Part shown: positions 441-22,166 of the stretch, piece by piece | Layout: each line of letters starts with the position of its first letter | Position numbering within the stretch: the stretch's first letter is position 1 | Assembly (NCBI GenBank): GCA_965248925.1 | Contig: CBDFLE010000006.1 | Span: forward strand, 288,001 to 352,000 | Length of the DNA stretch: 64,000 bases | Reading direction: 5' to 3' | DNA from: Candidatus Multivoradales bacterium | GTDB lineage: Bacteria; Acidobacteriota; Thermoanaerobaculia; Multivoradales; J023 | Notes under the pieces: model-generated | The model's database searches: none | The model's input: the letters and a program-made list of their open reading frames with translations, nothing else | What the model was told of the DNA's origin: nothing | Position numbers and translations under genes: made by a program

Positions 441-1010
441 TCACGAATTCCGGTCCCGGCGCAAACTTGCCAGCTGCGCGCCTAGCTGGTTGAAACCAGC
501 GGCGCCGGAGGGCGAATCTGCTGCACCTCGTCCTGGAGAGGCACCGGGGTTCGAAGGTGAACCTGGAGAGCCGCCCTGGCCGCCTTTCGGCGGGCGGGGA
601 CGCCTCCTCTCGGCCTGCTCGGCCACCAACAGGCGGGCGGTCCAGCCCAAGATCCAGCGCCAGGTAGTGAGAGGGCGGTCAGGGTGCTCGTCCAGAGCTG
701 CTGCCAACAAGGCTGCCAGGGTCGTGAGGTGTGCCATGACCTCGTGCTGATTCTGTGCCGTGGCTCGATCCAAAGCAGGAGCTGCCTTGAGAAAGAGGCG
801 AAAGGAGGCGAGGTCAGGAGCTTGCCGCAGGTAGCCGAGGAAGGTCTCCAGGGTGCCGCGCTTGAAACCGGTCTGGCCCGGGCTGTGGGACGCTGGGTCA
901 AGGCGCGGTATCGGCGTGGTGATCAGCTCAGCCGCCAGCTCAGCCGCTTCGCGAATCAGGGATTCTTTCTCCCTCGGGGTCAGCACGTCCAAACAATCGT
1001 GATCACTCAT
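441..1010 (-). CDS. Hypothetical CRISPR-associated protein, possibly a second Cas11-like small subunit
   Basis: ATG at 1010 overlaps the upstream RAMP stop (TGATG). Helical-looking core (MSDHDCLDVLTPREKE...ILGWTARLL) with a G/P/S-rich tail. Function inferred from position only. Confidence 0.55.
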   Translation of the reverse strand: MSDHDCLDVLTPREKESLIREAAELAAELITTPIPRLDPASHSPGQTGFKRGTLETFLGYLRQAPDLASFRLFLKAAPALDRATAQNQHEVMAHLTTLAALLAAALDEHPDRPLTTWRWILGWTARLLVAEQAERRRPRPPKGGQGGSPGSPSNPGASPGRGAADSPSGAAGFNQLGAQLASLRRDRNS

Positions 1011-1900
1011 CAGCCGCCCCCTGAAGTCCGTGGCAAGGACAACTCCGCCGCCAGGGTGGCGAGGGTGGCCGCCTGGCTCTGCTCCAGCCCACAACGGTGG
1101 ATGCAGTCCTCGACCAGCTGATTCACTTCCGCTGCGTCACCAGAAACCCAACAAGTCCCCTTGAGCCCGGTGTGCAGACGAAAGCCAACAGCGGTAATCC
1201 GGACTCTGCCCAAACCGTCGTATTTCGCTCCCCCCGGGCGCGGTGCGAAGCGGCCGATCCCGAGGCTGAGAAAGAGGGCACCGAGATCCTGACGAGACAC
1301 GTTGCGCAATCGCAGATCGGTATTCAGCACGGCGCCAGGCGGGATGGCAAAGGCCGGGATAACGCGAGGGGGCTGAGAATGGGCCGGCAGGTCGCCGTAG
1401 AGCCGATAGTAACCCCGAGTGGAGTTGCGGGGCGGGTAAGCTACCGAAATCGAAATCCGCTGGGCCACCAGGTCTCCGGCAGGAAACGCGTCGTCGAAGC
1501 TCACCCGGCCCATCAGACCGAGCCCACCAAAGAGACCGGCGGCCGGGGAGCACAAGCCGTACTTGGGAATATGTCCTTCCGCTGTCGCTTGCCGGCTGCC
1601 GGTCAGGGCTTCGAACATAGCGCGACAGGCGCCCTTGAGTCCCGAGCCGGGGAGGATCGGCACCCCACCCAGGCGCGCAATCTCCTTGACCGCCCGGCCA
1701 TCCTCCCCCAGGCTGAAGCCGCCCGAACCCACATGGACGGGGCCGAGGGCTTCGATCTCCAGGGTGACGGTACCCGAGCGTCGAGGAGCGTCCGCATCGC
1801 CCTGGGGCAGCCGGTCATGAAAGATCGGCTCCACCCTCGGGCCCGGTGGGGAACGGGGAATGGTGAAGTGATTGCGCGGCGGGCTGGGGGGTGTGAGCAT
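1010..1900 (-). CDS. Type III RAMP, Cas7 group
   Basis: TLEIEALGPVHVGSG, PILPGSGLKGACRAMFE, GLFG..GRVSFDDA, and G-rich loop GGAKYDGLGRV. Confidence 0.88.
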   Translation of the reverse strand: MLTPPSPPRNHFTIPRSPPGPRVEPIFHDRLPQGDADAPRRSGTVTLEIEALGPVHVGSGGFSLGEDGRAVKEIARLGGVPILPGSGLKGACRAMFEALTGSRQATAEGHIPKYGLCSPAAGLFGGLGLMGRVSFDDAFPAGDLVAQRISISVAYPPRNSTRGYYRLYGDLPAHSQPPRVIPAFAIPPGAVLNTDLRLRNVSRQDLGALFLSLGIGRFAPRPGGAKYDGLGRVRITAVGFRLHTGLKGTCWVSGDAAEVNQLVEDCIHRCGLEQSQAATLATLAAELSLPRTSGGG

Positions 1901-1916
1901 AGCCTCTCCTCATCAC

Positions 1917-2936
1917 TCAGGCATTGGTAGATCTGGCAAGAAAATGGTCAATAGCAGCGGGCAGTGCCTCCTCGATCAAGAGATCACCGACCCTAGCCAG
2001 CGAACTACCGCTGAGTTCTAGGCGACTGCCGCGCCAGGTCGGCTGCCGGGAGACATTCGCGGAAAGCTCCAGGGGGTCTTCGGCAACCAGACCGTACTCC
2101 CTGACCTCTCCACCACTGGCTAAGTTGGCAACGCCATGAAGCCATGGCGCGAGCCCCTCACCATCGCTGCCGGCAGCGGTCGCAGGTTGTACACTTTCAA
2201 AGCGCAGAGAACCGAGGCTTGCCCGCATCCTCCCGAGGCCGCGGGCCTTACCGAAACCGAGGCCGAAGTCCCCTTCGTCGAGAGCCCGCACCAGCACGAA
2301 GATCAAGGCCAGCTGCCAGAGCTGGATGTTGCGAAAAGGAATCTCGGCAAAGAAGCGCCCACCGGTGATCACCTCGATCTCGAACAGCCCACCGCTCTGC
2401 ACCGCCTGGCCGGTCTCACGATCGATGGCAACCTGGGTGCGACGCTCCGTCCGGTTGGCCACCACCGCGCCACGACGCATGGCCTCGGCATCGGCCAGCG
2501 GCTGCCAGGGGAATGCGTCCAGCACCGACATCCGGCCACTGACGGTCAACGAGCCAAAGGTGCGACACACCGGGCATTGGCGCTTGAAGATCGCCGAGGT
2601 GGGAGTCGTGTCGGGTCGTCCGGCACGTTTGCAACTGGGCCCCGCCGGCTGCCGGGCGCCACCGTGCGAGTTCCCCTTCTTCTGGTCCTTGGCGACCGGA
2701 TCGCAGACCGCCACACCCAGGCCGTAGAGTAGGCGCTCGGCATGGCTGCGCAGGGCGCCCTTGATGCCGGTTCCGGGAAAGAAAACGGTGTCACCCACCT
2801 CAGGATGGTAGGAGCGCACGAAGGCCATATCCGGTTGCGACGGGTCGACCGTCTCCCGACCGCTCTTGATCAGGGCGGCGCCCTGGGGGCTGAGCTCGAG
2901 CCGCAGGGTTCCATGGTTGAGCAAGCGTTTGAACAT
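1917..2936 (-). CDS. cas7: Type III RAMP Cas7 (Csm3-like)
   Basis: FFPGTGIKGALRSHAE, CPVCRTFGS, RTQVAIDRETG, and G-loop LGFGKARGLGRM. Confidence 0.88.
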   Translation of the reverse strand: MFKRLLNHGTLRLELSPQGAALIKSGRETVDPSQPDMAFVRSYHPEVGDTVFFPGTGIKGALRSHAERLLYGLGVAVCDPVAKDQKKGNSHGGARQPAGPSCKRAGRPDTTPTSAIFKRQCPVCRTFGSLTVSGRMSVLDAFPWQPLADAEAMRRGAVVANRTERRTQVAIDRETGQAVQSGGLFEIEVITGGRFFAEIPFRNIQLWQLALIFVLVRALDEGDFGLGFGKARGLGRMRASLGSLRFESVQPATAAGSDGEGLAPWLHGVANLASGGEVREYGLVAEDPLELSANVSRQPTWRGSRLELSGSSLARVGDLLIEEALPAAIDHFLARSTNA

Positions 2937-3769
2937 CAGGAAATCTCCGGCGACGGGGGTTGGGGGGAGGACTCGGCTGCGAGGGCGTCGACCAGGGTCT
3001 GGGTGGCGATTTCCTGCGCCTCGGCCCAGTCGGTCTCGGTGAAGCCGCCTCTGGCCAGCAGAGCTTGTGCCGAGGTTTCTCCGAGCGTCGCCTGCTCGAG
3101 GTGTACCCGGCCCAGGCCGCGAGAGGTCATGCCACCGATCAGAATGACCCCCTCATCGAGCATCTCGAGGGTCTTTAGCACCAGCGCCACCTGGGTGCTA
3201 TTGCAATTCTCCAGCAGGATCTCGAGAGCGAAGGCGGCGCCCGGCGGCACCACCTCGGTGTCGTACTTGACCCGCGGCTGGGCGACCCCGAGATCGCGAT
3301 TGATACCGACACCGTCGCGCACCTCGGTGCGGAGCAGGGTGGCGGGCACCAGGGGCAGGTCGCGCACAAAGACCCGCCCGCCGATCATCGTCGAGCCAAA
3401 GAGACCGCAGGTGATGCAGACTGTGCGGCAGACCTCGTCGAGGCTGACGCTGTCGCGCTGCTGCTTCGCCCTGGTCTCCAGAGCCGAGGTGCAGCGGCCC
3501 TGCTCATCCAGCACATCGCAGGCGCGAAAGTTCCCTTGACCTAGCCCACGAATCACCCGCTCGAGACCGCTGCGCAGAGCCCCTTTGATCGCGCTGCCAG
3601 GGAGATAGGGACGGCCGAGGGCGTCGCGCATGATGGGCTGATCTGTAGCTTCCGGATCCTGGGCCTTGCCGGCCCCAACTCGGATGCCGGAGACCGCTAC
3701 CAGCCGGGCTCGAATGCGGTGCCGGCTGGTCAAGGCTGCAAAAGAGGTGAACTCGAGAAAGGGGCTCAT
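2936..3769 (-). CDS. csx7: Type III RAMP Cas7 (Csx7/Csm3-like)
   Basis: Start reassigned to ATG 3769 (ATGA overlap). IRVGAG..ATDQPIMRD carries Asp at the Csm3 catalytic position; also PYLPGSAIKGALRS, CITCGLFGS and IGGMTSRGLGRV. Confidence 0.88.
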   Translation of the reverse strand: MSPFLEFTSFAALTSRHRIRARLVAVSGIRVGAGKAQDPEATDQPIMRDALGRPYLPGSAIKGALRSGLERVIRGLGQGNFRACDVLDEQGRCTSALETRAKQQRDSVSLDEVCRTVCITCGLFGSTMIGGRVFVRDLPLVPATLLRTEVRDGVGINRDLGVAQPRVKYDTEVVPPGAAFALEILLENCNSTQVALVLKTLEMLDEGVILIGGMTSRGLGRVHLEQATLGETSAQALLARGGFTETDWAEAQEIATQTLVDALAAESSPQPPSPEIS

Positions 3770-4350
3770 CGCCGACCTCCGCGGGGCCTCTGCCGGTGTT
3801 GGTTCCTGGGCCGGGTCGCCTTGATGCGCGCTGCGCTCCACTGCTCTTCTTTGAACCGTGCCACCTGATAGGTCTGCTCGCGGATGACGAATCCGATCAG
3901 CAGGGAGGCCAGCCGGCGGCCAGCCGCTTCCTGATCTTCGGCTTCGTCTTCGTCTTCGGTGGGGGCGCCGCCGAGCCGTTGCCGAACCTGCTTGTCGAGC
4001 AAACCGAGCAGTTCGTGGCCTGGGCCGGCATCGTGCCCCCAACCCCGGCTCCCGCGGCCGATCTGGTAGCGCAAGTAACTCTCGACCACGGCCAGCGGCT
4101 CATTTTGGGTGGTCGCCAGCAGGCTGCGAAGCTGCGAAGTAGTGACCCTTGGATCGGGGAATCGAGGGCGCCGCTGCGGATCCTCGCCCATGTTCATCCA
4201 TCTGGCAACTGCGTTAGCAAAGCGCTCCAAGAGCTTGCTGGAGGTTTGATCGGAAGGTTGATAGCTCTCTGACTTTTCAACGTAGGCTTGCGCGGCGACA
4301 ACCAGCGCGCTCTTCTGGGTTTCGATCCAGGCGAGGGATTCGGGGCTCAT
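3766..4350 (-). CDS. cas11: Cas11 small subunit (Csm2-like)
   Basis: TTSQLRSLL...YLRYQIGR motif; helical 194-aa protein translationally coupled between csx10 and cas7. Confidence 0.72.
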   Translation of the reverse strand: MSPESLAWIETQKSALVVAAQAYVEKSESYQPSDQTSSKLLERFANAVARWMNMGEDPQRRPRFPDPRVTTSQLRSLLATTQNEPLAVVESYLRYQIGRGSRGWGHDAGPGHELLGLLDKQVRQRLGGAPTEDEDEAEDQEAAGRRLASLLIGFVIREQTYQVARFKEEQWSAARIKATRPRNQHRQRPRGGRR

Positions 4351-6236
4351 TGTTCGGTCCTCCGGTCGGCCTTCCAGCCGGGTAGATGTAGATCGTCGGA
4401 AATGCGGACCCGGCCATAGCCCTGGGCGCGCTGACCGCCGAGCCCTCCGGACTCGATGGCCTCACACCGCGCGCGGTGTGAGGCGTCATCCGGCACCGCC
4501 AGAAGCAGGCAGGAGCCCACGCACACCACCGGTTCGAGATCCTTGAAACGGCCCGCCAAGGTGTCGAAGCCACCTCGCTGGTCAGCGCGGAGCGTCGCTG
4601 CCAGCAGCTCGGCGGCGGGCAGCTCGAGGGCCTGCAGGAAGGCCTGCAACACCGTCGTAGCTTGTGAGCCGGGGGCCAGGACCAGATCGTTCTCGAGGGT
4701 GACGGTGATCAGCAGTCGGCCGGGCCACGGCTCCTCCGCGGGTAGCTGACAAGTACTGCAGACCCGCCTCCAGGCTTGCCGCACGGCGGCATCCAGGGCC
4801 GCGAGGCGTGCATCGATCGAATCCTCGATCGCCGGCCGAACTCCGACCAGCTCAACTCGGCCGTAGCCTTGGCCACGACCGTGCCCGACCCGGATCACCC
4901 CCCGCTGAGCATCTTCGAGAAGCTGGCGTCCAGCAGCGTCCAGCCGGTCGACGCGGGCGCAGAAGCGGCTGCCGGGAGCAAGCAGGTCGAGGGAGAAGAG
5001 CTTGCCATCAACCCCCCGGCCACTGGCCACATCGAGGGCCAGGCGGGTGACCACCCGGCGCTCGGGCTCCACCGCATCCAGCCAACGGTCGACCGGCACC
5101 AGACGCGCGCCACAAGGCTGTCCCGCGGCCGGCGTGTGCCGACAGGTCTCGTCGAAGGCGCGATGGATACCGCGGTCGGCGAGCTGATTCTTGATCCAGC
5201 CCAGGATCAAGCGATCCATGCCACCGTGGGCCCAGCCTTCAAACTTGCAAACGCCAAGGGAGAGAGGTGCTGGCCGCGGCCGGCGGCGGTCTTCGCTATC
5301 GACGGCCACTCCATCGGCAAAGCGCAGGCAGGTCGATTCGTCGAGCAGCAGGCGGCGGAAGACCGGGTCTGCAGACTGATCCTCGGTAGTTCCGCGAGCC
5401 GTCATGGCGGCGGTCACCAGCGCGCCGCGCAGCGTCGAGGCGCGCACGAAGCCGAGACTGCGGTGGTAGTTGTTGGTGAGAAAGAGAGTATCGCCGAGAC
5501 AGAGGGGCTCTCTGGCCTCGAGGGTCAGCTCGAGTGAAGTGGCGTCGGGCAAAGGCAGGCTTGCCGGCATCTCGCCCCGGAACCTGGCGGCCGATACCGA
5601 CTCGAGGCGTATGCTCACCTGGCCGAGGCCCGCGGAACGACCGCCACCGATGGCGAAGACCGCTTCGGCCGCGGCCGCGAGACACTTGAGATCGTCGGCA
5701 CCATGCTCGGTATCGGCGAGCAGGTGGGTGACGTCGACCTCAGCGGTGAATGCCAGGCCATCGAGGAAGGGAGCGACCACCTGGCGGGCGAAGAGGTGGT
5801 GGTCCGCTGCTCGCCGGGAGCCGCGGCTCAGCGAGACCTGGTGGCGGGTTTCCAAGCCGCCACCGCGAGAGAACAAGTCGCGCAGGGCGGTGTCCTGCAA
5901 CAGCCCGTCGCTGATGTACACCCGGGTGGTGCCACCGCCAATGCGCTCGACCGAGGGCCCGCCACCCACCGCGGATGAACCCGCTGAGCTTGCCGTGCCG
6001 GCCGGCCCGGGCTCCTGGCCGAGGATCCGGCCGAGGGTCGCCCGCGCGGTCTCGGGCCTGACCGCCAGAAGCAGGCGGGTCAGCTGTTCGCGCAAAGCCC
6101 CATTGAGCGCCGTCGCCGGGATGAAGGGCACCCCCGCAGCGTCACGGGCGGTGGCGTCGTGAACCTCGGGCTGGGTAGTACCGCCGAGCAGCAACCCGCC
6201 GCGAGGCTCGACGATCAGACGATGGGTAATGCTCAT
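4347..6236 (-). CDS. csx10: Csx10 (Cas7-Cas5 RAMP fusion), type III-D-like
   Basis: Start reassigned to ATG 6236 (ATGA overlap with the cas10 stop). Three G-loops (IGGGRSAGLGQV, VGHGRGQGYGRV, LGGQRAQGYGRV), plus PFIPATALNGALRE and FVRASTLRGAL. Confidence 0.85.
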   Translation of the reverse strand: MSITHRLIVEPRGGLLLGGTTQPEVHDATARDAAGVPFIPATALNGALREQLTRLLLAVRPETARATLGRILGQEPGPAGTASSAGSSAVGGGPSVERIGGGTTRVYISDGLLQDTALRDLFSRGGGLETRHQVSLSRGSRRAADHHLFARQVVAPFLDGLAFTAEVDVTHLLADTEHGADDLKCLAAAAEAVFAIGGGRSAGLGQVSIRLESVSAARFRGEMPASLPLPDATSLELTLEAREPLCLGDTLFLTNNYHRSLGFVRASTLRGALVTAAMTARGTTEDQSADPVFRRLLLDESTCLRFADGVAVDSEDRRRPRPAPLSLGVCKFEGWAHGGMDRLILGWIKNQLADRGIHRAFDETCRHTPAAGQPCGARLVPVDRWLDAVEPERRVVTRLALDVASGRGVDGKLFSLDLLAPGSRFCARVDRLDAAGRQLLEDAQRGVIRVGHGRGQGYGRVELVGVRPAIEDSIDARLAALDAAVRQAWRRVCSTCQLPAEEPWPGRLLITVTLENDLVLAPGSQATTVLQAFLQALELPAAELLAATLRADQRGGFDTLAGRFKDLEPVVCVGSCLLLAVPDDASHRARCEAIESGGLGGQRAQGYGRVRISDDLHLPGWKADRRTEQ

Positions 6237-8101
6237 CTGCGATTCTCCGTTGCGCCGCCCATGAGGGAGCACAGCTCGATGGCATCGAGAAAATCCGTGC
6301 ACTTTCGGCCACCGCGCTCCTGCCACAGAAGCTCGTCGACGGTGGCCAGCTTCGGTTGACCCACCGCGCAGCGGAAAGCGGCCCATCCGAGCCGCTGGGA
6401 CTTGTCCTTGGCGCGGGCGTTTTGGTAGCGAAAGAAGCTCTGGCTCTCCCAATACCCGGTCTGGATGGCCCTGGCGACGGCGTGGATTTGGCTGCTGCCA
6501 ACATGCATGTGGAGGGCTTCGGCCCGCTGTGCCAACTCTTGGAACTCGGCAAAGCTGTAGGGCCGGAGAGTCAGCAACAGAGCGGGTTCGGGACTTGGAG
6601 GCTGAGCCGCGGAGCGCTCGAAGTGGGCGGCTCGCAAGGTCCGAATCGAGCCGTTGAGCGGGTTACCCGAGCGCAGCACCATGAAATCGACCGCACTGCG
6701 GATCGGCTGGCTCTCGACCTCGCGGCCCTCGCCATCGCCACGGCTCAAACCGCTGGCGTCGGTACTCTGGTGGATGCGCGCCTTGGCGTTCTTGAGCAGC
6801 TCGCGGGCATAGCCGAGGAGGATGCGGTCAGGAAACTTGTCATCGGCAATGGCCACCCCCACGCCGACACCGAACCGCTCCACCGCCTGGCGCAGGCCGG
6901 AGCTGCAAGACAAGACACTCCGCAAGAGCTGATTGTGGTCGGGGGAGAGGTGCTTCTCAAGCGCCGGGACCAGGGCGCAGATGAACCGGCTGGCATGGCG
7001 GGCGGAGAGCAGGACGACCAGGTCGTCGCCGCCGCGAATCGGCGCTTGGTAACGCCCTTCCTCGATGCCGCAGACCCGTACAGCCGCGGCCAGCGCCCGC
7101 TCGAAGGCGGACTCCACCGCCAGACTCAGGGCTCGATGCTGGGCGGGTGAGCCGACCCGGGAGAAGGACTGGCCAAAGTTGGCCCCATCGGCATAGACCA
7201 GGGCCAACATGGGATCGGTCTCCTGCTCGGCGAAGAGATCGTGCGAAGTTCGCGCCTGCTCGACCTCGCGGCGCAGCCGGCCGGCGGCCTGGCCGCGGGA
7301 TAGGCAGGGGGCGCAAACCTCCTCCCGCTGCTCGCCCCGTCGCCGGGGCGTGGTCGCGGGCCGCTCACCACAGGCCTGGCAGCGCTCACGCTGACGAGTG
7401 GCGGGGATCCTCGGCGGCAAGCGCAGGATGTCGGCACGGCGCCGGTCGAGCCTGGCGAAGAGTGCCGCCAGCACCGCCGGATAACCGCGGGACGGGCTCG
7501 GCACATCCCACTCCCCCACCCCCTCACCCACCGGGTCGCCGCCGACCTCGCCGGTTCCTTCTTCCTCCTCGAGGTCGCTGGGCCAGACCTCGAGTGCGGT
7601 GGCGGCGGTGACCAGGTCTCCATGGGTGGCCCGCTCAAGGGCCGCCTCAAGAGGCGCGATGACCGCTCGAGCACGGTGAGCCGGGGTCAACACCAGGCCG
7701 CCACCTGCGCCGCCGTAGACCTCTGCCAGCGGGGAGATCCCCTGGTCGCGCAGGATCGAGCTTGAGGAAGCTACCCCGCGAGTGCGTTTCTCATCGCTTG
7801 AGCCGTCTTCTCCGCGGGTCAGGTCGGCAACAACATTGCTACCCCCTTGTCGGTCACCGGGACGGGCGACTTTGAAGACATAGTGCTGGATGCCCGGGGT
7901 GTCGAAAGCGACCAGAGCCAACGGCGGCTGCTCGCCAAACAGCTGGCGAAGACGGCCGTGATCTCGGTCCTCGAGTGCCTTCAACACCTCGCTGACATCC
8001 GTGGCCCGGGCCGCCGCCTCCTGCTCGAGACAGAGGCGCATGCCGCCTGCGAGGTCAGCTTCGATCCGTTCGAATGAGTCTTGGGTCACGTTACTCTCCA
8101 C
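6233..8101 (-). CDS. cas10: Cas10 without HD domain, with intact palm cyclase motif
   Basis: FDTPGIQHYVF, Zn finger CQACG...CAPC, LVYADGANFG and IRGGDDLVV. Only 622 aa, with no N-terminal HD motif. Confidence 0.93.
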   Translation of the reverse strand: MESNVTQDSFERIEADLAGGMRLCLEQEAAARATDVSEVLKALEDRDHGRLRQLFGEQPPLALVAFDTPGIQHYVFKVARPGDRQGGSNVVADLTRGEDGSSDEKRTRGVASSSSILRDQGISPLAEVYGGAGGGLVLTPAHRARAVIAPLEAALERATHGDLVTAATALEVWPSDLEEEEGTGEVGGDPVGEGVGEWDVPSPSRGYPAVLAALFARLDRRRADILRLPPRIPATRQRERCQACGERPATTPRRRGEQREEVCAPCLSRGQAAGRLRREVEQARTSHDLFAEQETDPMLALVYADGANFGQSFSRVGSPAQHRALSLAVESAFERALAAAVRVCGIEEGRYQAPIRGGDDLVVLLSARHASRFICALVPALEKHLSPDHNQLLRSVLSCSSGLRQAVERFGVGVGVAIADDKFPDRILLGYARELLKNAKARIHQSTDASGLSRGDGEGREVESQPIRSAVDFMVLRSGNPLNGSIRTLRAAHFERSAAQPPSPEPALLLTLRPYSFAEFQELAQRAEALHMHVGSSQIHAVARAIQTGYWESQSFFRYQNARAKDKSQRLGWAAFRCAVGQPKLATVDELLWQERGGRKCTDFLDAIELCSLMGGATENRR

Positions 8102-8137
8102 AATCTGGCAGGCCGGCCGCCGTCGCGTTGGCAGTGC

Positions 8138-8560
8138 CTACGCCGGCCGAGTCTTGTTGGTCAAGTGCGGCGATTCGGGGCCCATCCATTCGCCTGTAGC
8201 AACCCAGATCTCGAAGTAGTAGAGCCACATTGCGGTCCAAGGGACGATCGATTCTGAGAGCTTCTTCGAGGGGGACCACCGCCAGTCCTTTGGCCAGTAC
8301 AAGCAAAGACTGCGGTCGCCGTAGATGTGTGGCGTAGCCGGCGGAAAGGAGAATCTTGGTAGAGTCACCTTGGGCGATTTCCCGCGGTTGTGCTCAATCC
8401 TCACCTGATACGAAGGGGACAGCTCAGTAGGTTGAAGATGTCCCGACCACGAAAGACCGCTCTTACGATTTGGGCGTCCTTCAAACTGCGGAAAGTGTTG
8501 CCACATGGAGGCGATCTGGTGCGAAGGGTTGTCATCTGAGGTTCTCCGGACGCGGCTCAA
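8138..8560 (-). CDS. Prokaryotic E2 (ubiquitin-conjugating-like), short Cap2-type CBASS accessory protein
   Basis: WSGHLQP..YQVRI...PHIYGDRSLCLYWP..W...SIVPWTAMWLYYFEIW matches the bacterial E2 fold with a His..Cys active site; 4-nt overlap with the CD-NTase stop. Confidence 0.82.
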   Translation of the reverse strand: MSRVRRTSDDNPSHQIASMWQHFPQFEGRPNRKSGLSWSGHLQPTELSPSYQVRIEHNRGKSPKVTLPRFSFPPATPHIYGDRSLCLYWPKDWRWSPSKKLSESIVPWTAMWLYYFEIWVATGEWMGPESPHLTNKTRPA

Positions 8561-9597
8561 GGTCTGTCTCCATGAAAGCGCGTTGCAGTTGTCGAGATGC
8601 CATCCGGCCGGTCGGTAACTAAACCGGCTGGCGAAACATACGCCGCGCCGAGACTCCTCCCACTTGCCTCAAGGCTGGCGTGGCTCTTGACCTCTTCGTC
8701 CGTAGGCCAATGATCACCAAAAAGCGCTGACCAGCTGTCGATAGCCTCGTCCCGCTCACCGTCTACAGCCTTCCTGGCCTTCTTCGCCGCCTCTCGAATT
8801 CTGCGCATGAATGTCTCGAAGTGGCTTCTTTCCCAGCCAGTAGTGACAATGGCTCCCGTTTGAGGGTCAGGGATACGAGGAACGCCGATACCACTATCCA
8901 TGGGCTCTTCGTACTTCTCAGCGATATGTTCGAAGAAGCACATGAGAACCGTGTCGAGACCGTGACCTTCTGTCTCAATCGCTGCTGAGTCGATGGACTT
9001 GAAAGCCATGATCTCGAGAACATAACTCTTGATCCTACGATGCTTCATCTGGACATCACGCCACGACTTCAGCAGCTTGATGAGGCGAATCAAGTTGCCC
9101 TGGCTCTTTGCGTTGAGCGTCGAAAGACTCCTGGCGTATCCCAACGGATCAGAAACCAACCATTCTTCCTTTTTCCGATCCGGAATCTTTAGAGCTTTTT
9201 CAAGTCCGTTGGGAGCTACCGCCGGCACAATGTCCAGATGCACTTCCGGGTCTTCGAAGCAAAGGTGAATAGAGCGCCTTTGCGGTGATGCCTCGGCGGT
9301 CGCATCGGGATAGTCATCGAGAGCCTTCTTCAGCTCTCGCAGCACCGATTCTGGCGTTCGTTCGAGCGTCGCATCGTCATAGAACAGGAGTGTGTCAATA
9401 TCTTTGATGTCGAGGATCGCGGTTGACCGACTGTACGAACCGATGAGACGGGAATATGGGGCTACGGTCGTGAGATCGTCTCTCTCTTCGAGCCAGTCCC
9501 GAACTTGCGCGGGAAGCTCTCTTGCGTGTCTTGCTCGTTCGACAGATGGATTAACATTGTGCAGAAGTGCTGCGAAGTGTCTTGGGAGATTTGGCAT
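8557..9597 (-). CDS. cGAS/DncV-like nucleotidyltransferase (CD-NTase, SMODS)
   Basis: LIGSYSRSTAI..IKDIDTL (GS..DxD), HLDIVPAV, WLVSDP, LIKLLKSWR, KSYVLE, IPDP and WSALFGDHWP; tail ends RFHGDRP. Confidence 0.92.
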   Translation of the reverse strand: MPNLPRHFAALLHNVNPSVERARHARELPAQVRDWLEERDDLTTVAPYSRLIGSYSRSTAILDIKDIDTLLFYDDATLERTPESVLRELKKALDDYPDATAEASPQRRSIHLCFEDPEVHLDIVPAVAPNGLEKALKIPDRKKEEWLVSDPLGYARSLSTLNAKSQGNLIRLIKLLKSWRDVQMKHRRIKSYVLEIMAFKSIDSAAIETEGHGLDTVLMCFFEHIAEKYEEPMDSGIGVPRIPDPQTGAIVTTGWERSHFETFMRRIREAAKKARKAVDGERDEAIDSWSALFGDHWPTDEEVKSHASLEASGRSLGAAYVSPAGLVTDRPDGISTTATRFHGDRP

Positions 9598-9669
9598 GAT
9601 GACTAGGTTGGTCCCCTTGATGTTGGTCGTTAGGCCGAGGAGTGTTGAGGGTTCAACAGTTCTGGTGAA

Positions 9670-11613
9670 TCACACTGTGCCACCCATCGCCGGCGAGACC
9701 AGGGTGATCGACCGCTCATAGCTCTTGTGCCCCTGTTTCTCGAAAGCGTATTCATACATCTGCACCCTGCCCAGGGTGTGGCTCAGCCGGCCAAGGGCCA
9801 AGGATAGTCCGATTGGCCCGGCAAGGAAAATGTGTGCTGTGTGGTGGTCGGAGGTCAGGCCGTCGATCCGAGCGATGAGCTGTTCGGCGAGAGCGCGGGC
9901 ATGGCCACCACCTTCGACGCCGGCCTGATCGGGTGTCTCGAAGCAGGCGTAGATCACCTTATTGACAACAGGTGGATCGAGGTCTTCGCGCTTCAAGTAG
10001 GCAGCGACCTTGTCGAGAATCGAGCGCGACATCTCAATGACGATGGCAATGTCCTCGGATGCCGGGTCGAGAGGAAAATCGTCAGTGATCCGCGCCTGAG
10101 ACGCGCCGGAATCCAGCCACTTGGGAGCGTTCGGCGGCTTGGGATCGCTGAAACGCCAGAGCTCACCGCTCTGGGTCATAGTGATCTCGCGCCAATCTTT
10201 GGCTGGTAGCAAAAAACCGGCCGTGAATCCGACGCTGAGCGGCGCGGTGATGGTGAAGTGGCAGGGGCTGGTCTGCGGCAGCTTTCTTTCCACCGTATCC
10301 CGTAGGGCATCCAAGATGGGGCCATTCCAGTAACAGGGGTCACGGACAAAACGCCCGTTGAAGTATTCCTCGAGATCGATCTCGTAGTCGCTCTGCTTGA
10401 CCGCGTGCTTGCCGCGGTCCCGGGTGTTGAAGATGGCGATCTTCTTTGCCGGGACCGCCGCGAAGTCTAGGTTGAGTACCCTGCCGTCTTTTGAGCGCAA
10501 GAAGAGGACGGGGGTTGACCGTTCTAGCTCGCCACTGGCCCCCTTGCGGTCGATGGCGAGCCGGCCTTCCGTAACGGCATCGTCGATCAGCGCATTGCGA
10601 TCGAGAGCGGCATAGAAGTCTCTGGTAAAGGCAGCTGCGGCATTTTCGGAGATGCTGAACTGCATGGCGACCACCGCCGGAACGCGGCGCGCGACCAACG
10701 CCGAGGCGACGCCGGCGAACGGATGATGTCCCTTGGCGTCGGCAGTCGGAATACAGCCAGTCGAGCACGAAGCAAGGGTAACCAGGCGCACGCTGTGGGG
10801 GATCTGGCGGGCCAGATCCTCTGCCGATACGAGGTGCTCGCTACCGTCCTCGCGTTCGAGAAAGAGGGCGCCGTCGCCCTCGGAGTTGAACCCACCGTGA
10901 CAGAGAATGTGCAGCGCGTGGTAAGGAACTAGATGTGCCTCGGCATCGACTAGCTCTTGGCGGAGAGCGTCGAGAGTTGGTTCCTCCAGCAGCCGGAGCT
11001 GCAGATATCGCGCCGAGCGAATCGCGTCTTTCAACACTTTCCTATGCCACGCTTTGTCAAACTTGCTGTAGCGATGACCGGGAGAGGTCTCAGGGTTCGG
11101 CGAGGCCACCAGACCGAGAATCTTGAGCGTTGGCGCCACGTCGAGGGCGGCGATCTTGTCGGGCAGGTCGAGATAGCGGGCGATGGGGGTCTCCCGCTCG
11201 CAACCGATGAAGCGAGCGGTGCCCGGATTGTAGAGCAGCTCCCAGGGCAGGCTGCCCAGAGCATGATTGTAGGGCTGGCCGAAGCTGAGGCGAAGTCGCA
11301 AGCCCTGGCCGGAGCCGAGCGCCGCCTCGCTCTGTTGAAAGGTCTTGCCGACTGCTCCGGAGAACAGGGTGTTGTAGAGCGCGGTGCCGATCTTCCGCGC
11401 CAACTCACGCCGCCGTGACGCGTGCTGATCACCCTGAATGAGCAGGCTCTCAAATTCCTGGACCCATGCTTCGATCGCGACCTGGTCGGCCGCGCGCATT
11501 GTAAAGCGAGCACGAGGTCGGTCTCGGGGCGATTCGAGTACTCGGATCTCCGGTTTCTGGCAGCAACACTGTCCGAGCTCGATCTCAAAATCTTGATAGC
11601 TAACTGTGCTCAT
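9670..11613 (-). CDS. CHAT (caspase-like) protease fused to a C-terminal SAVED domain
   Basis: CHAT: LGSLPWELL, LHILCHG (His), VTLASCSTG (Cys), VPAVVAMQFSI. SAVED: FTITAPLSVGFTAG, DIAIVIEMSRSI, HIFLAGPIGLSLALGR, VQMYEY. Confidence 0.88.
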   Translation of the reverse strand: MSTVSYQDFEIELGQCCCQKPEIRVLESPRDRPRARFTMRAADQVAIEAWVQEFESLLIQGDQHASRRRELARKIGTALYNTLFSGAVGKTFQQSEAALGSGQGLRLRLSFGQPYNHALGSLPWELLYNPGTARFIGCERETPIARYLDLPDKIAALDVAPTLKILGLVASPNPETSPGHRYSKFDKAWHRKVLKDAIRSARYLQLRLLEEPTLDALRQELVDAEAHLVPYHALHILCHGGFNSEGDGALFLEREDGSEHLVSAEDLARQIPHSVRLVTLASCSTGCIPTADAKGHHPFAGVASALVARRVPAVVAMQFSISENAAAAFTRDFYAALDRNALIDDAVTEGRLAIDRKGASGELERSTPVLFLRSKDGRVLNLDFAAVPAKKIAIFNTRDRGKHAVKQSDYEIDLEEYFNGRFVRDPCYWNGPILDALRDTVERKLPQTSPCHFTITAPLSVGFTAGFLLPAKDWREITMTQSGELWRFSDPKPPNAPKWLDSGASQARITDDFPLDPASEDIAIVIEMSRSILDKVAAYLKREDLDPPVVNKVIYACFETPDQAGVEGGGHARALAEQLIARIDGLTSDHHTAHIFLAGPIGLSLALGRLSHTLGRVQMYEYAFEKQGHKSYERSITLVSPAMGGTV

Positions 11614-11743: not shown

Positions 11744-12079
11744 TCAAGAGGTTGATTTCTTGGCTGTAGCACGAAGACCGCTCTTTGGCGGCGTAGGGTT
11801 GGCCGTGCCGTCGTCGTGACTCTTTTGCTGCCCCGGCATGGCTTCCACACCGAGGCCCGGCCGGGGACGATCCTTGGGTGCTGCCGGAAAGCTGTCATCG
11901 CCAGCGGCTGGTGCGTGCTTGCTGGTGGCACGGAGCGAGTTCGCTCCCTTGGGCTTGTCCTGACGTTCAGTTCCGCTGTCAGGCGCGCGGTCAGCGGCTG
12001 ACGGGTCAGAACTCGGGTCGGCAGCGGAGGTCGTTGGGGAAGAGCTGCTGGACGGCTTCTGCTGCGGGGCTTCGTGCAT
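11744..12079 (-). CDS. Small low-complexity, probably disordered protein
   Basis: AAGGAG lies 8 nt before ATG 12079; S/P/A/K/D-rich; co-oriented with its neighbours. Confidence 0.5.
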   Translation of the reverse strand: MHEAPQQKPSSSSSPTTSAADPSSDPSAADRAPDSGTERQDKPKGANSLRATSKHAPAAGDDSFPAAPKDRPRPGLGVEAMPGQQKSHDDGTANPTPPKSGLRATAKKSTS

Positions 12080-12214
12080 CTGGATCACTCCTTGCTTGGG
12101 GGTAGACGGCGGTCTGGGCGGGTAAGGCTGCGGTGCCTCGCCGCCGCCCCTCTGACTGCTTCGGAGTGTTGGTTCCCGCTGCGCGAGACTTCTAGGAAGA
12201 AAGTTCGAGAAAGG

Positions 12215-15200
12215 TCAGCCGTCGCCCTGGAGGACGAAGGGAGCCCAGTAGCGGGGTGCCGAGTAGCCATCCTGGGCCCGTAGCCAGCGCTGGGCATAGC
12301 GTAGCGCGGCTGCCGGAGTGCGACCGTGGGCCAGCATCTGCCGGTAGAACTCCGCCATCAGCAAAGACGCGGCGACATCGTCGACGCTCCACAGGCTGAC
12401 CAGCACCTGGCTGCTGCCCGCGTGGAAGAACCCCTGGGTCAAGCCGAGTAGCCCATCGCTACGGACTCTCTGGCCGAGGGCGGTCTGACAGCCACTCAGG
12501 ACCGTTAGATCGCTGGCCAGATGGAGGCTGTCGATCTCGTGCAGATACAACCCGCCGTCGACCTCACGACCGGCCCGATCGACCCTGGTCAGCAGCAGCC
12601 CTGAGAGTTCGGGGAAGCGCTCGTCAACCCAGGCATGGGTGGCGAAGTGGAGGATTCGGTAGGCTCCGAGATCGGCCGCCAGCACCGCCTGCTTGGTCGC
12701 CTGCCAGCCACGCAGCTGGAGCTGCTGATCGGCGGCGACTAACTCGCCAATGGCATCGGCCTCGAATGCCGTGGCCGGCAGACGAGGGAGCGGGCCATCG
12801 GGAAGGCGGTCGATGGAAACACCGCGGTCCGCTGGGACTGCGATCGCAGCCGGCTGTAGGGATCGCGGAGCTGCCGCGGAAGGCGAGTTTGCTGGTAGTC
12901 CGCCGGAGAGAAATCTTGAGTCACTAGCCGAGAAGACGGCATCGGCAAAGACCGCTACGCTCTTGTCAGCCTGCGCGCGACCTTCACGCCGCGCCCGCAA
13001 GGCAGCGAGTACCGAAGCCGAAGGAACCATGACCACTTCGAAATCTTCGAGCACCAGCCGGGGGCCGGCAGCGCCTCGATCTCCTCCTTCTGCTCGCGGA
13101 CTGGGCAGCACGCCGAAGGGAAGGTAGTGCAGCACTCCCTGGGCGATGATCAATAGGTGGCGGGTGCCGCTGGGAATGGCAGACTCCGGGAGCAACATTC
13201 GGCCCAGTTGGTCGGCGATCAAAAGCCACTGATCATTGTCCTGATCGGTGGACTTCAGGGCGGCATAGAGACCTTCGGCGTGGGCTTCCAAAACGGCTTG
13301 CGGGGGCAGGTCGAAAACCGCCAGGTGGCGAGAGGTCAGGGTCAGCAGGTGGCTCGACTCGGCACCGAGCACGTAGGTCAAGAGAACGCTCTCAGGTCCG
13401 AGCAGCGCCTGCGCCTCAGCGACAGTGATCGGCCGCGGCGATGCCAACAGCCCGCTGCTCCGTGCGGCAACTCGGCGAGTGGCGCGCTCGTCCTCCAGAT
13501 CGAGCTGTAGGTGGCGAATCTCCACCTCGATCTCGGCAACCGCAGAATCTCCGCTGGCAGGCCCTGCAGCCGCTTCCTGGCGCTTGGTGGCGAGGGCCGA
13601 AAGACGCTCCTGCAGCGCGCTCATGCGACTGTCTCGGCGAAGATTGGCCGCCATCTCGGCACCGGATCGGGTCGCCACGACCAGCTCGACGAGGCGGCGC
13701 GCACGAGTCTGGTCTGCGACCTCGAAGGCGCGCCCCAGGTCCGCTGCATCTCCCCTGCTGCGGTAGCGTGCGAGCAACAACGACACCTCCAGTGCGGCGT
13801 AGTCCTGCCACAGACCGATCGGCCGGAAACGATGTCCCTGCTCGCGGGCGCGCTCCCGCAGCGCCTCGACGATGTCGAGAGCCTTTCGAGCATGGTCCAG
13901 GGCACCGTCGAGGTCGTCGCGATGGCGGGCCAGGCGTGCCAGGCAGTAGTCGGTGTGGGAGCGGTCGTAGGCACCAACGTCGCCCTGCTCGCCGGCCTGC
14001 CCAACAGCGAGCGCGCTCAAGAAGAGCACAGCGGCTTCGGCGTGGCGGTCGGTCTCGGCGAACATGCAACCCAAGTTGGTACGGATGGTCGCCACGTAGC
14101 CCTCGGCATCCTTGAGCGAAGCGGCGATAGACGAGGCCCGCCGGTAGGATTCCTCCGCAGCCACCCGATCGCCGGTAGCGAGCAGCAGGCTACCCAGCCG
14201 ATCGAGCACGCCGGCCTCGCTCCAGCGATCCTCGTCCGCGCGGCGGAGAGAAAGCGCTTGCCGTAGGGGCTCCAGCCCCTGCTGCGACTCGCCACGCAAG
14301 TGGTGGATCCAAGCAATCGCCGCCAGAACTCCCGCCTCGCGCCGGCCAGCCCCCTCCTGCCGCACCAGCTCGAGGGCCTCGGCCAACACATCGAGCGCCT
14401 CCTGGTGATGATCGATGGTGCCTAGGGCCTCCCCCAGATTGTGCAATGCCTGGGCGGTCTCCAGCGGGTCGTCCATCGTCCGCCACAAGTCGAGCGCTCG
14501 CCGATAGCGATCCTGTGCCCGGTAGGGATCGCCAAGCTGCCAATCGACCAGTCCGCGGTTGGTCAGGGTCGCGGCTTCTCCCCGCGAATCACCGGCCCGG
14601 CGCGCCAGGGCCACGGTCTGGTCCAGGATCGTGGCGGCGCGATCCAGCTGGCCGGCTCGCGCCAGAGCACGACCTTCCCGAGCGCCAAGATTGACCCGCA
14701 GGCTGACCAGCCCGGCAGCTTCGGCGATCGCCGAGGCAGTTACGAAGCTCTCGATCGCCCGGTCCAGAAACCCGGCTTCAGCGAGCGCGTCCGCCAGCTC
14801 CCGCCAGGCGCCGGTAGCGCCGAGGGGCTCACCTGCCAAGGTCCACAGTCGGGCGGCCTCGGCGAATGCTGCGCGCTGGGCTTCGGGCTCCAGCGCCGAC
14901 CGCGCAAGGCGAAAAACTCGGGTCGCCTCGGCGCATCTTCGATCCTCCCCGGTCGCCGGACGCGAGTGCAAGATGCGCACCGCGTACCGGCCACCCGCTC
15001 GATACGGCCGGATGCCGATCTGGTAGATCCCTGCCTGGCGACTTATCCAGCAGACTCGCTCAGCGGCCAGAATGCCTAGTCGGTCGATGGTCAGGAGGGT
15101 CTGGCCATCGGGCGCCGTGACCTCGACCACTAGATCGACTTGGTCCTGGGTGGCTTGGAGCAAAACCGCGTGGCCCTGGGGAAGATCGAGCTGGTATTGA

Positions 15201-21998: not shown

Positions 21999-22166
21999 GA
22001 ATCCTCCTGGGTGCGCGGCCGCCCTGCCGGCCAGGCTGCAAGTGGCATCTTCCAGCCTTCTGGGCACTTTCTTGTCCTGGCTGGCTGGCCAAAATCCTCA
22101 AGCCCATGCCCAAGGCGCGTGCTTCGGCGATTGTCCGCAGTGTCATATGCAATGTCATTTGAAATC

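What the first reader, a model, noticed from the sequence alone, without database searches (positions are those of the whole stretch)
6233..11613. CBASS core placed at the head of a type III-D-like CRISPR operon: two cyclases, one visible SAVED protease
Seen: CHAT-SAVED, CD-NTase, E2 and cas10 are co-oriented, with a 72-nt gap, a 4-nt overlap and a 36-nt gap, followed by the coupled csx10-cas11-cas7 genes. Cas10 keeps GGDD and lacks HD. No Csm6/Csx1, NucC or separate CBASS effector is visible in the window. Known: Cas10 and CD-NTases both make cyclic oligonucleotides, and SAVED domains read such signals in both system types. Inference: adaptive (crRNA) and innate (CD-NTase) sensing may converge on one protease, or one signal may tune the other. 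I do not know of a characterised system with this arrangement.
Basis: partly seen in the sequence, partly recalled or inferred. Interest (0 to 1): 0.92.

Follow-up and report, generated by a model that had tools for sequence, protein, structure and literature searches.

The report
CBASS cyclase nested in CRISPR operon
A two-gene CBASS sensor (cyclase plus E2 regulator) sits inside a type III-D CRISPR operon, between the CRISPR system's own signal-sensing protease gene and cas10, so innate and adaptive virus sensing may drive one shared alarm pathway.

Summary
CHAT-SAVED (9670-11613), CD-NTase (8557-9597), E2 (8138-8560) and cas10 (6233-8101) are co-oriented, with a 72-nt gap, a 4-nt overlap and a 36-nt gap. 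All catalytic motifs are intact. The block lies inside a complete type III-D locus with three arrays and two Cas6-RT-Cas1/Cas2 modules.

The parsing changes. In a same-family genome (G011) the locus is syntenic and CHAT-SAVED directly precedes cas10. The Cas10 and CHAT-SAVED trees agree. So CHAT-SAVED is the CRISPR system's own effector, and only CD-NTase-E2 (GC3 0.57 against 0.73-0.79 in its neighbours) is an inserted CBASS cassette.

Both cyclases probably make cA3. NucC follows this CD-NTase family in 9 of 10 related loci, and NucC also sits in the G011 III-D operon.

The association recurs. G045 has III-D plus CD-NTase-Cap2 beside CHAT-SAVED. G1275 has III-B plus a CD-NTase-E2 fusion and CHAT-SAVED.

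An ECF sigma factor, an anti-sigma factor and a lipoprotein TPR-CHAT lie upstream and suggest a transcriptional output.

No paper found in seven full-text searches describes both cyclases in one locus. Shared signalling is inferred and not shown. I file it as a new variant of a known kind, interest about 0.72.

The parts
22383..23857 (-). CRISPR array with 21 repeats of 35 nt. On the minus strand each repeat ends in ATTGAGAC.
19125..22067 (-). Cas6-RT-Cas1 fusion (adaptation module, copy 1)
   Evidence: Pfam Cas1 9e-66, RVT_1 6e-35, Cas6 5.5e-05
18832..19128 (-). Cas2
   Evidence: Pfam 1.5e-20
17993..18525 (-). CRISPR array with 8 repeats
16321..16989 (-). ECF-type sigma factor
   Evidence: Pfam Sigma70_r2 6.5e-10 and r4_2 1.5e-08. 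Homologues lie in the G011, G020, G1260 and G045 loci.
15459..16310 (-). Membrane anti-sigma factor with an HxxxCxxC zinc finger and one TM helix
   Evidence: Sequence. zf-HC2 match is weak, E 0.011. Orthologues sit beside TPR-CHAT in G011, G008, L026, L028 and L033.
12215..15457 (-). TPR-CHAT protease. The likely start is the ATG at 15457, followed by a lipoprotein-type signal peptide, so the protein is probably exported.
   Evidence: Pfam CHAT 5.4e-59 plus TPR. A lipobox Cys is conserved in the window protein (read) and in 5 orthologues.
11744..12088 (-). 114-aa ORF of unknown function. It may not be a gene.
   Evidence: No family hit. No homologue in the related loci.
9670..11613 (-). CHAT-SAVED, an N-terminal caspase-like protease with a C-terminal Cap4-like SAVED sensor
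   Evidence: H235/H239/C283 are invariant in 28 of 28 sequences. The family profile matches Cap4 at 1e-32 and TIR-SAVED at 9e-10.
8557..9597 (-). CD-NTase of a NucC-linked E2-CBASS family
   Evidence: GS, DxD, D and the near-C-terminal Gly343 are invariant in 29 of 29 sequences. GC 0.541 and GC3 0.573, the 2nd percentile of the genome's long ORFs.
8138..8560 (-). CBASS E2-only regulator
   Evidence: PADLOC E2 9.5e-40. His78 and Leu-Cys86-Leu are invariant in 11 of 11 sequences. Nearest solved structure is 8hsb E2 at 5e-13.
6233..8101 (-). Cas10 with an intact GGDD cyclase and no HD domain
4347..6232 (-). Cas7-Csx10 (Cas5 III-D) fusion. The listed ORF runs up to 6452, but the family matches begin at the cas10 stop.
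   Evidence: PADLOC Cas5_IIId 4.3e-26 on residues 307-689 and Csm3 on residues 73-289
3766..4350 (-). Cas11 (Csm2, III-D small subunit)
   Evidence: PADLOC 6e-10
1010..4042 (-). Three Cas7/Csm3 genes (2936-4042, 1917-2936, 1010-1900)
441..1094 (-). 217-aa protein of unknown function that ends the effector operon
   Evidence: tblastn hits in the same position in 7 of the 8 related stretches. The eighth contig, L135 of 3.7 kb, ends before that position.
1..392 (-). Start of a second Cas6-RT-Cas1 gene that continues left of the window, followed there by Cas2 and a 7-repeat array
   Evidence: 953 of 957 residues are identical to copy 1.

Best explanation
The window holds a complete type III-D CRISPR-Cas locus. 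Its native signalling effector is a CHAT-SAVED protease, which travels with an ECF sigma factor, a membrane anti-sigma factor and an exported TPR-CHAT lipoprotein. A two-gene CBASS sensor cassette, an E2-regulated CD-NTase without an effector of its own, was inserted later into the short spacer between the CHAT-SAVED gene and cas10, in the same orientation.

Proposed working, all inferred:
1. crRNA-guided binding of target RNA switches on the Cas10 GGDD cyclase.
2. Independently, phage infection switches on the CD-NTase. Its tail after the conserved Gly is processed and conjugated by the E2, as in E2-CBASS.
3. Both enzymes make a cyclic trinucleotide, most likely cA3.
4. The Cap4-like SAVED domain of CHAT-SAVED binds this signal and activates the CHAT protease.
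5. The likeliest output is cleavage of the cytoplasmic part of the anti-sigma factor and release of the sigma factor, a CalpL/CalpT/CalpS-like logic. A protease cascade is less likely, because TPR-CHAT appears to be exported.

Shown here: gene content, intact motifs, synteny, the insertion and the recurrence. Inferred: co-transcription, the chemical identity of both signals, shared sensing and the protease substrate.

The confidence of 0.55 is for the whole chain, shared sensing included. The insertion history alone I would put at about 0.85.
For: (1) Identity and intact catalytic residues of all four genes.

(2) The block lies inside a CRISPR locus. There are arrays of 7, 8 and 21 repeats, and two adaptation modules that are 99% identical on both sides.

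(3) The ancestral state is visible in relatives. In G011 (same family) the order is sigma, anti-sigma, TPR-CHAT, CHAT-SAVED, about 97 nt, cas10, csx10, cas11, three cas7, orf217, with no CD-NTase or E2. In G1260, CHAT-SAVED also directly precedes cas10.

(4) The trees are congruent. The window's CHAT-SAVED is sister to the G011 protein P0139 (SH-aLRT 98). The window's Cas10 falls in one clade with the G011 protein P0235 (SH-aLRT 100).

(5) The cassette is compositionally foreign. CD-NTase GC3 is 0.573 (2nd percentile of 2633 long ORFs) and E2 is 0.688, against 0.728 for CHAT-SAVED and 0.785 for Cas10.

(6) In 8 of 10 genome loci of the CD-NTase family, NucC directly follows E2. In a ninth it lies further down, and the tenth has a 1-TM effector. 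In the window, cas10 occupies the place where the effector would be.

(7) Both sides point to the same messenger. NucC is described as cA3-activated (Hoikkala 2024, PMC11229360, passages read). NucC also sits in the G011 III-D operon. The nearest named solved CD-NTases, after the unnamed entries 9sa4/9sa5, are trinucleotide synthases of the CdnD and CdnC types. The SAVED profile matches Cap4 and the cA3-activated TIR-SAVED.

(8) The closest CD-NTase (P0005, 65% identity) shares its contig length with a CHAT-SAVED family member (P0144), so the pairing may occur naturally.

(9) The association recurs in different architectures. G045 has CD-NTase and Cap2 (E1-E2) divergent from CHAT-SAVED, sigma and TPR-CHAT, with III-D cas10 on the same contig. 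G1275 has a CD-NTase-E2 fusion (45% identity) between cas1 and the cmr operon, with CHAT-SAVED after cmr6.

(10) This cassette often shares one effector with another cyclase. 5 of 10 family loci hold a second cyclase, and I saw only one NucC in each.

(11) No terminator-like site lies in the 72-nt or 36-nt gaps.
Against: - Nothing here measures transcription, cyclase products or protease activation.
- The low GC3 shows the cassette arrived recently, and a recent insertion need not be functionally integrated.
- The CD-NTase was not found with this query in 58 of 60 other relatives. The closest syntenic locus lacks it, so it is dispensable for the CRISPR system.
- The three loci with both cyclases are all in one bacterial order, so they are not fully independent.
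- Outside G011, the links between database proteins rest only on equal contig lengths. The heuristic was checked for one pair out of five.
- cA3 is inferred from NucC neighbours in relatives at 40-57% identity. CD-NTase product specificity can shift within a family.
- The terminator and promoter scans found no more sites than shuffled sequence, so they carry no weight in either direction.
- TPR-CHAT carries a lipoprotein signal. This argues against a Haliangium-type cytoplasmic protease cascade and leaves the substrate of CHAT-SAVED open.
Confidence: 0.55

Rival explanations
1. The two systems are merely nested. An E2-CBASS fragment landed in the CRISPR operon, as defence genes often do in islands. 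The CD-NTase makes a signal that CHAT-SAVED does not read, or reads alone, so the two systems do not talk to each other.
For: - The cassette is compositionally foreign.
- The closest syntenic locus lacks it, and 58 of 60 other relatives give no match.
- Mobile elements are dense around the locus: three copies of a 797-aa transposase just to the right, and rve and ISL3 transposases to the left.
Against: - The cassette has no effector of its own, while 10 of 10 family loci have one.
- The genome holds no NucC and no other CD-NTase of this family, so CHAT-SAVED and its type III-B-locus paralogue (28% identity) are the only SAVED-domain proteins found in it.
- The insertion is in frame with operon direction, with gaps of 72 and 36 nt.
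- Both cyclase lineages are tied to NucC.
- The association recurs in three architectures.
Confidence: 0.22
2. The CD-NTase-E2 pair works as a modulator or guard and not as a second sensor. One version is that it makes a basal or decoy nucleotide that sets the threshold of CHAT-SAVED, or that exposes phage sponges and ring nucleases, in a Panoptes-like logic. Another version is that it amplifies the Cas10 signal.
For: - Decoy-nucleotide logic exists for minimal CRISPR polymerases (Panoptes papers, seen only in the search listings).
- G1275 carries a further small SMODS gene next to a SAVED protein.
Against: - The CD-NTase family is otherwise an ordinary E2-CBASS with NucC.
- Its E2 and C-terminal Gly fit the published activation route (Yan et al. 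preprint 10.1101/2022.05.25.493364, abstract read).
- Nothing in the sequence points to constitutive activity.
Confidence: 0.1
3. The cassette is a decaying remnant with no present function.
For: It lost its usual downstream effector. In two related MAG loci (L022, L023) the CD-NTase is split over two frames.
Against: In the window both ORFs are full length with every conserved catalytic residue. Translational coupling by the 4-nt overlap is kept. A near-identical copy of the E2-cas10 junction occurs in a second sample.
Confidence: 0.06

Closest known systems
Haliangium ochraceum type III-B with SAVED-CHAT and PCaspase, called a 'CRISPR-Cas/CBASS hybrid' (Steens et al., preprint 10.1101/2023.06.23.546230; passages read)
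   Same: A type III system uses a SAVED plus CHAT protease of CBASS origin as its signalling effector. cA3 is the messenger there. A sigma factor is part of that gene set. Related effector modules are found with either Cas10 or CD-NTases.
   Different: - In the passages read, each locus has either CRISPR-Cas or CD-NTases. Here, and in G045 and G1275, both cyclases are in one locus.
- Domain order is reversed (CHAT then SAVED). Only the CHAT part gives a weak profile match to solved CHAT chains, 8tl0 at 3.6e-07.
- The subtype here is III-D.
- The second CHAT protein here is a TPR-CHAT lipoprotein. It is not a small cytoplasmic caspase.
E2-CBASS, the type II short form (Yan et al. preprint 10.1101/2022.05.25.493364, abstract read; PDB 8hsb)
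   Same: A CD-NTase with a conserved Gly near the C-terminus is followed by a small E2 with a catalytic Cys, with overlapping stop and start codons. Family relatives carry NucC.
   Different: No effector follows E2, and cas10 stands in that place. The only SAVED protein adjacent to the cassette belongs by ancestry to the CRISPR system.
CalpL-CalpT-CalpS, a SAVED-Lon protease with an anti-sigma and a sigma factor (summarised in Hoikkala 2024; abstracts listed)
   Same: A cyclic-nucleotide-sensing SAVED protease is encoded with an anti-sigma factor and an ECF sigma factor in a type III locus, which suggests a transcriptional output.
   Different: The protease family differs (CHAT, not Lon). The likely messenger is cA3, not cA4. 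The anti-sigma factor is membrane-spanning and paired with a periplasmic TPR-CHAT. Cleavage has not been tested.
Type III CRISPR systems that use NucC (summarised in Hoikkala 2024)
   Same: An effector is shared between CBASS and type III through cA3. The G011 relative of this locus has NucC.
   Different: What is shared here is the locus itself. Both synthases sit in it, and this genome has no NucC.

Membership tests
Type III-D CRISPR-Cas | Cas10 large subunit with a cyclase palm domain | tested here: met
   PADLOC Cas10 3.3e-37, Pfam palm2 3e-07, GGDD present
Type III-D CRISPR-Cas | Csx10 (Cas5 of III-D), a III-D type Cas11 and several Cas7 | tested here: met
   Cas5_IIId 4.3e-26, Csm2 'CAS-III-D effector_SS' 6e-10, three Csm3-like genes
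Type III-D CRISPR-Cas | CRISPR arrays and crRNA processing and adaptation genes | tested here: met
   36 repeats in three arrays, two Cas6-RT-Cas1 genes and two Cas2 genes
Type III-D CRISPR-Cas | RNA-guided interference and cOA synthesis | not testable with these tools
   No RNA or biochemical data. No RNA run was listed.
CBASS type II short (E2-CBASS) | CD-NTase with GS...DxD...D active-site residues | tested here: met
   G53, S54, D66, D68 and D122 are invariant in 29 of 29 sequences, the window included
CBASS type II short (E2-CBASS) | E2-only partner with a catalytic Cys, and a CD-NTase with a conserved C-terminal Gly | tested here: met
   C86 invariant in 11 of 11. G343 invariant in 29 of 29. 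PADLOC E2 9.5e-40.
CBASS type II short (E2-CBASS) | A dedicated effector in the same operon | tested here: inconclusive
   No effector follows E2. CHAT-SAVED lies upstream but co-diversifies with Cas10. 10 of 10 family loci have a downstream effector.
SAVED-CHAT effectors (Haliangium type) | SAVED sensor fused to a CHAT protease with a His/Cys dyad | tested here: met
   Pfam CHAT plus SAVED. H239 and C283 are invariant. The domain order is reversed compared with the solved chain 8tl0.
SAVED-CHAT effectors (Haliangium type) | Activation by cA3 and cleavage of a second, cytoplasmic caspase | not testable with these tools
   cA3 is inferred only from NucC neighbours. The neighbouring TPR-CHAT has a lipoprotein signal, which speaks against a cytoplasmic cascade.
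Calp-like protease, anti-sigma and sigma module | ECF sigma factor and anti-sigma factor encoded beside a SAVED protease | tested here: met
   Sigma70_r2 and r4_2. The anti-sigma motif and TM helix are visible, but Pfam zf-HC2 reaches only E 0.011. The module is conserved in related loci.
Calp-like protease, anti-sigma and sigma module | The protease cleaves the anti-sigma factor | not testable with these tools
   Needs an in vitro cleavage assay.

The most novel reading that the evidence does not exclude
In one order of Acidobacteriota, CBASS sensor cassettes (a CD-NTase with an E2, a Cap2 or a fused E2) have been recruited at least three separate times into type III CRISPR loci that use CHAT-SAVED. 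The result would be a two-input, one-messenger immune circuit. Memory-based RNA sensing through Cas10 and memory-free infection sensing through the CD-NTase both raise cA3. One SAVED protease reads it and switches an ECF sigma/anti-sigma programme. The cassette would then be a portable add-on sensor that plugs into any cA3-reading effector, as its frequent pairing with a second cyclase and a single NucC also suggests.
Probability: 0.4. Interest if true: 0.85.

Novelty: new variant of a known kind. Interest (0 to 1): 0.72.

Why it matters
Type III CRISPR and CBASS are known to share effectors such as NucC, TIR-SAVED and SAVED-CHAT. They are still treated as separate systems, each with its own cyclase. 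A locus in which both synthases flank one sensor protease, seen in three architectures, offers a natural test of three questions:
- Can adaptive and innate sensing be wired onto one second messenger?
- How is autoimmunity avoided when two inputs share a lethal or transcriptional output?
- Can CD-NTase-E2 cassettes serve as exchangeable sensor modules?

The locus also points to a CHAT-SAVED, anti-sigma and sigma pathway with a periplasmic TPR-CHAT, which has not been characterised.

Tried and rejected
**Searches for the Cas10 clade**
- The single Cas10 protein in 401 genomes of the phylum gave only one weak match outside G000.
- The Cas10 profile gave four matches, the best at 243 bits, in 401 genomes of the phylum of G449.
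- It gave no match in 401 genomes of the phylum of G450.
- It gave no match in five genomes that carry the CD-NTase family.
- It gave no match in plasmids or viral contigs.
- Only the profile search in 101 close relatives found the clade.

**Other searches with little return**
The close homologues were not recovered.
- CHAT-SAVED against plasmids gave only partial domain hits.
- The listing of cluster members returned no names or accessions.

**Contig-length links**
I linked database proteins by equal contig length. This was confirmed for one pair, P0235 and P0139 on G011:C25, at 706675 nt. The other four pairs remain unverified: 10804, 20682, 79831 and 13502.

**Results that count neither way**
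- Complex prediction, CHAT-SAVED residues 1-400 against anti-sigma residues 1-118: no verdict, score 0.00. This is not evidence either way.
- The look-up of sequencing runs listed no RNA holder, so it says nothing about expression.
- In read laying most of the stretch had no usable cover in run X1. This is not a finding.
- The promoter and terminator scan found no more sites than shuffles.

**Reading I rejected**
I considered that CHAT-SAVED, CD-NTase and E2 together form one inserted CBASS operon. I rejected this because of the G011 and G1260 synteny, the congruent trees and the downstream-effector rule of the CD-NTase family.

**Limits**
- search_protein_families was exhausted (12 of 12). 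Genes in G045, G008, G1275 and the other SMODS loci were therefore partly annotated only by tblastn, my own HMMs, PDB and atlas searches. Some neighbours remain unnamed.
- Supplementary files of the papers were not opened. Steens et al. and Hoikkala et al. may list loci there that bear on novelty.
- The claim that the arrangement is not in print rests on the seven full-text searches and the passages read only.

Full report
**1. What is there**

On the minus strand the window carries one long run of co-oriented genes:
- a 21-repeat CRISPR array (22383-23857)
- Cas6-RT-Cas1 (19125-22067) and Cas2 (18832-19128)
- an 8-repeat array (17993-18525)
- an ECF sigma factor (16321-16989)
- a membrane anti-sigma factor (15459-16310)
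- a TPR-CHAT protein (12215-15457)
- a 114-aa ORF
- CHAT-SAVED (9670-11613), CD-NTase (8557-9597) and E2 (8138-8560)
- Cas10 (6233-8101)
- a Cas7-Csx10 fusion, Cas11, three Cas7 genes and a conserved 217-aa protein.

The window is G000:C6:288001-352000. To its left lie a second Cas6-RT-Cas1 (953 of 957 residues identical to the first), a second Cas2, a 7-repeat array and then a housekeeping ETF-QO gene. The CBASS-like genes are therefore bracketed by CRISPR parts on both sides, and no CARF effector lies to the left.

**2. All four proteins look active**

- CD-NTase: G53, S54, D66, D68, D122 and a near-C-terminal G343 are invariant in 29 of 29 aligned family members.
- E2: H78 and L85-C86-L87 are invariant in 11 of 11.
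- CHAT-SAVED: H235, H239 and C283 are invariant in 28 of 28.
- Cas10: D305 and the GGDD at 357-360 are invariant in 23 of 23, together with four Cys.
- No HD domain was found in Cas10.

**3. Which genes belong together by descent**

A Cas10 profile found strong matches (over 500 bits) in 7 of 101 related genomes, G000 included. I fetched 8 loci from the six other genomes.

- G011 (same family) is syntenic gene for gene: sigma, anti-sigma, TPR-CHAT, CHAT-SAVED, cas10, csx10, cas11, three cas7, orf217, then NucC, RT-Cas1 and Cas2. CHAT-SAVED and cas10 are about 97 nt apart there, with no CD-NTase or E2.
- In G1260, CHAT-SAVED also directly precedes cas10. G020 keeps CHAT-SAVED, TPR-CHAT and sigma beside cas10.
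- In trees, the window's CHAT-SAVED is sister to the G011 protein (SH-aLRT 98), and its Cas10 falls in one clade with the G011 Cas10 (SH-aLRT 100).
- The same genome has a second locus, type III-B, with a CHAT-SAVED paralogue, a TPR-CHAT and a CARF-TM protein, and no CD-NTase.
- A metagenome contig has a CHAT-SAVED heading a cmr operon.

CHAT-SAVED is therefore this CRISPR system's own effector.

**4. The CD-NTase-E2 pair is the newcomer**

- Its GC3 is 0.573 for the CD-NTase, the 2nd percentile of 2633 long ORFs of the genome, and 0.688 for E2. Its neighbours have 0.728 (CHAT-SAVED) and 0.785 (Cas10).
- With the protein as query it was found in 3 of 61 genomes, G000 included. It occurs once in G000.
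- Its family is a populous E2-CBASS clade. In all 10 genome loci recovered, CD-NTase and E2 are adjacent.
- NucC follows E2 directly in 8 of the 10. It lies after an interposed HORMA/TRIP13/second-cyclase set in one. A 1-TM effector follows in one.
- In the window, cas10 stands where the effector would be.

The simplest history is insertion of an effector-less sensor cassette into the CHAT-SAVED/cas10 spacer.

**5. Why one messenger is plausible**

- NucC is described as a cA3-activated nuclease used by both CBASS and type III systems (Hoikkala et al. 2024, PMC11229360, passages read).
- NucC marks the CD-NTase family (9 of 10 loci). It also sits in the III-D operon of G011, whose Cas10 is in the window's clade.
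- The nearest solved CD-NTases after an unnamed entry are cAAG and cAAA synthase types.
- The SAVED profile matches Cap4 (1e-32) and TIR-SAVED (9e-10). TIR-SAVED is described as cA3-activated in the same review.
- The Haliangium SAVED-CHAT is activated by cA3 (Steens et al. preprint, passages read).
- The closest CD-NTase in the databases (65% identity) shares its contig length with a CHAT-SAVED family member. This link is unverified.

All of this is inference from neighbours. No product has been measured.

**6. Recurrence**

Pfam SMODS gave 13 matches in 11 of 101 related genomes. I fetched the regions around them.
- Four matches lie in type III loci that also hold CHAT-SAVED:
  - G000 has one.
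  - G045 has one. CD-NTase (PADLOC 1.3e-148) and Cap2 E1-E2 (1.6e-172) are divergent from CHAT-SAVED, sigma and TPR-CHAT. The III-D cas10 with GGDD lies about 6 kb beyond TPR-CHAT on the same contig.
  - G1275 has two. A 487-aa CD-NTase-E2 fusion, 45% identical to the window's CD-NTase, sits between cas1 and an array plus cmr1-6 (Cas10b with GGDD), next to an HTH-M78 regulator. A SAVED ORF, a small SMODS gene and CHAT-SAVED lie after cmr6.
- One match (G008) is a CD-NTase with a Cap2-like gene directly after CHAT-SAVED, anti-sigma and TPR-CHAT. The contig ends just upstream.
- One match (G050) abuts a SAVED-domain ORF.
- The other seven matches showed none of my queries except E2-like genes in two.

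The three loci with both cyclases differ in CRISPR subtype, in the kind of ubiquitin-like regulator, and in position and orientation. This argues for separate assembly events. They are nevertheless kin from one order.

Within the CD-NTase family itself, 5 of 10 loci carry a second cyclase, and I saw only one NucC in each. Sharing one effector between two cyclases seems usual for this cassette.

**7. Output**

Sigma, anti-sigma and TPR-CHAT accompany CHAT-SAVED in G011, G045, G008 and metagenome contigs. TPR-CHAT has a lipoprotein-type signal with a conserved lipobox Cys in the window and in five orthologues. The anti-sigma factor has one TM helix.

I therefore favour cleavage of the cytoplasmic part of the anti-sigma factor by activated CHAT-SAVED and release of the sigma factor, as in the Calp system (described). 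A Haliangium-type cascade seems less likely. This step is the least supported.

**8. Comparison with the literature**

[quoted passage not shown] In the passages read, gene clusters had either type III genes (two operons) or CD-NTases (four operons).

Hoikkala et al. list SAVED-CHAT in three type III loci and TIR-SAVED as a 'moonlighting CBASS effector'. The passages found with my terms do not mention CD-NTases in type III loci. The 2025 CRISPR classification and a 2026 Csx15 preprint gave no such case in the passages found.

Seven full-text searches listed no paper on both cyclases in one locus. Supplements were closed and subscription papers are not covered.

**9. Verdict**

The block is a type III-D system with its native CHAT-SAVED, sigma and anti-sigma arm, into which a CBASS CD-NTase-E2 sensor cassette has been inserted. 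Shared cA3 signalling is likely but unproven.

Noticed in passing
window 1-392 plus left flank (L003:3519-6392), and window 19125-22067; window 18490-18789 and 23822-24121: The whole adaptation module (Cas6-RT-Cas1 and Cas2) is duplicated at 99% protein identity on both sides of the effector genes. A 300-nt stretch next to two of the arrays is repeated at 91%. This looks like a recent segmental duplication or recombination within the locus.
   Followed up: partly
G000:C6:4108001-4146000 (L110, L111): The same genome holds a second locus, type III-B. It has cas6, cmr1, cas10b, cmr3, cmr6, a CARF-TM protein, a CHAT-SAVED paralogue (28% identity), RT, cas1, cas2 and a TPR-CHAT, with no CD-NTase.
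   Followed up: partly
L132 (G011:C25) 2976-3719: A NucC homologue (41% identical to a CBASS NucC) ends the III-D operon of the closest syntenic relative, which also has CHAT-SAVED. That locus therefore has two predicted cA3 effectors.
   Followed up: partly
L141 and L148 (G1275:C3:70001-106000): A type III-B locus holds a CD-NTase-E2 fusion, an HTH-M78 (CapH/CapP-like) regulator, an IS21 element between arrays and a cas6 that appears as two pieces about 1.8 kb apart. It also holds a SAVED ORF followed by a small SMODS-like gene.
   Followed up: partly
L016, L017, L018, L021, L022: E2-type CD-NTase loci carry a second cyclase (PADLOC PDLC00803, or a HORMA/TRIP13-associated one) and only one NucC. 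These are tandem CBASS systems that seem to share one effector.
   Followed up: partly
L022 206-1328; L023 1430-2495: In two MAG loci the CD-NTase is split over two overlapping frames. This is either a frameshift or an assembly error.
   Followed up: no
window 24394-26787, 29530-31923, 34583-36976: Three copies of a 797-aa transposase (Pfam Transposase_29, 2.5e-76) lie just right of the CRISPR locus. A further DDE transposase lies at 38516-39907.
   Followed up: no
window 50809-63966: A giant minus-strand ORF of 4385 aa or more runs off the right end of the window. The same short tandem repeat occurs at 55288-55333 and at 63199-63244, which suggests internal duplication. I did not examine it.
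   Followed up: no
whole genome G000: At least 12 TPR-CHAT paralogues are scattered over the genome. One on contig C5 lies 2.6 kb from a CHAT-only relative of CHAT-SAVED.
   Followed up: no
window 441-1094: A 217-aa protein with no family match closes the III-D effector operon. tblastn finds it in the same position in 7 of the 8 related stretches. It may be an undescribed III-D subunit or accessory protein.
   Followed up: no
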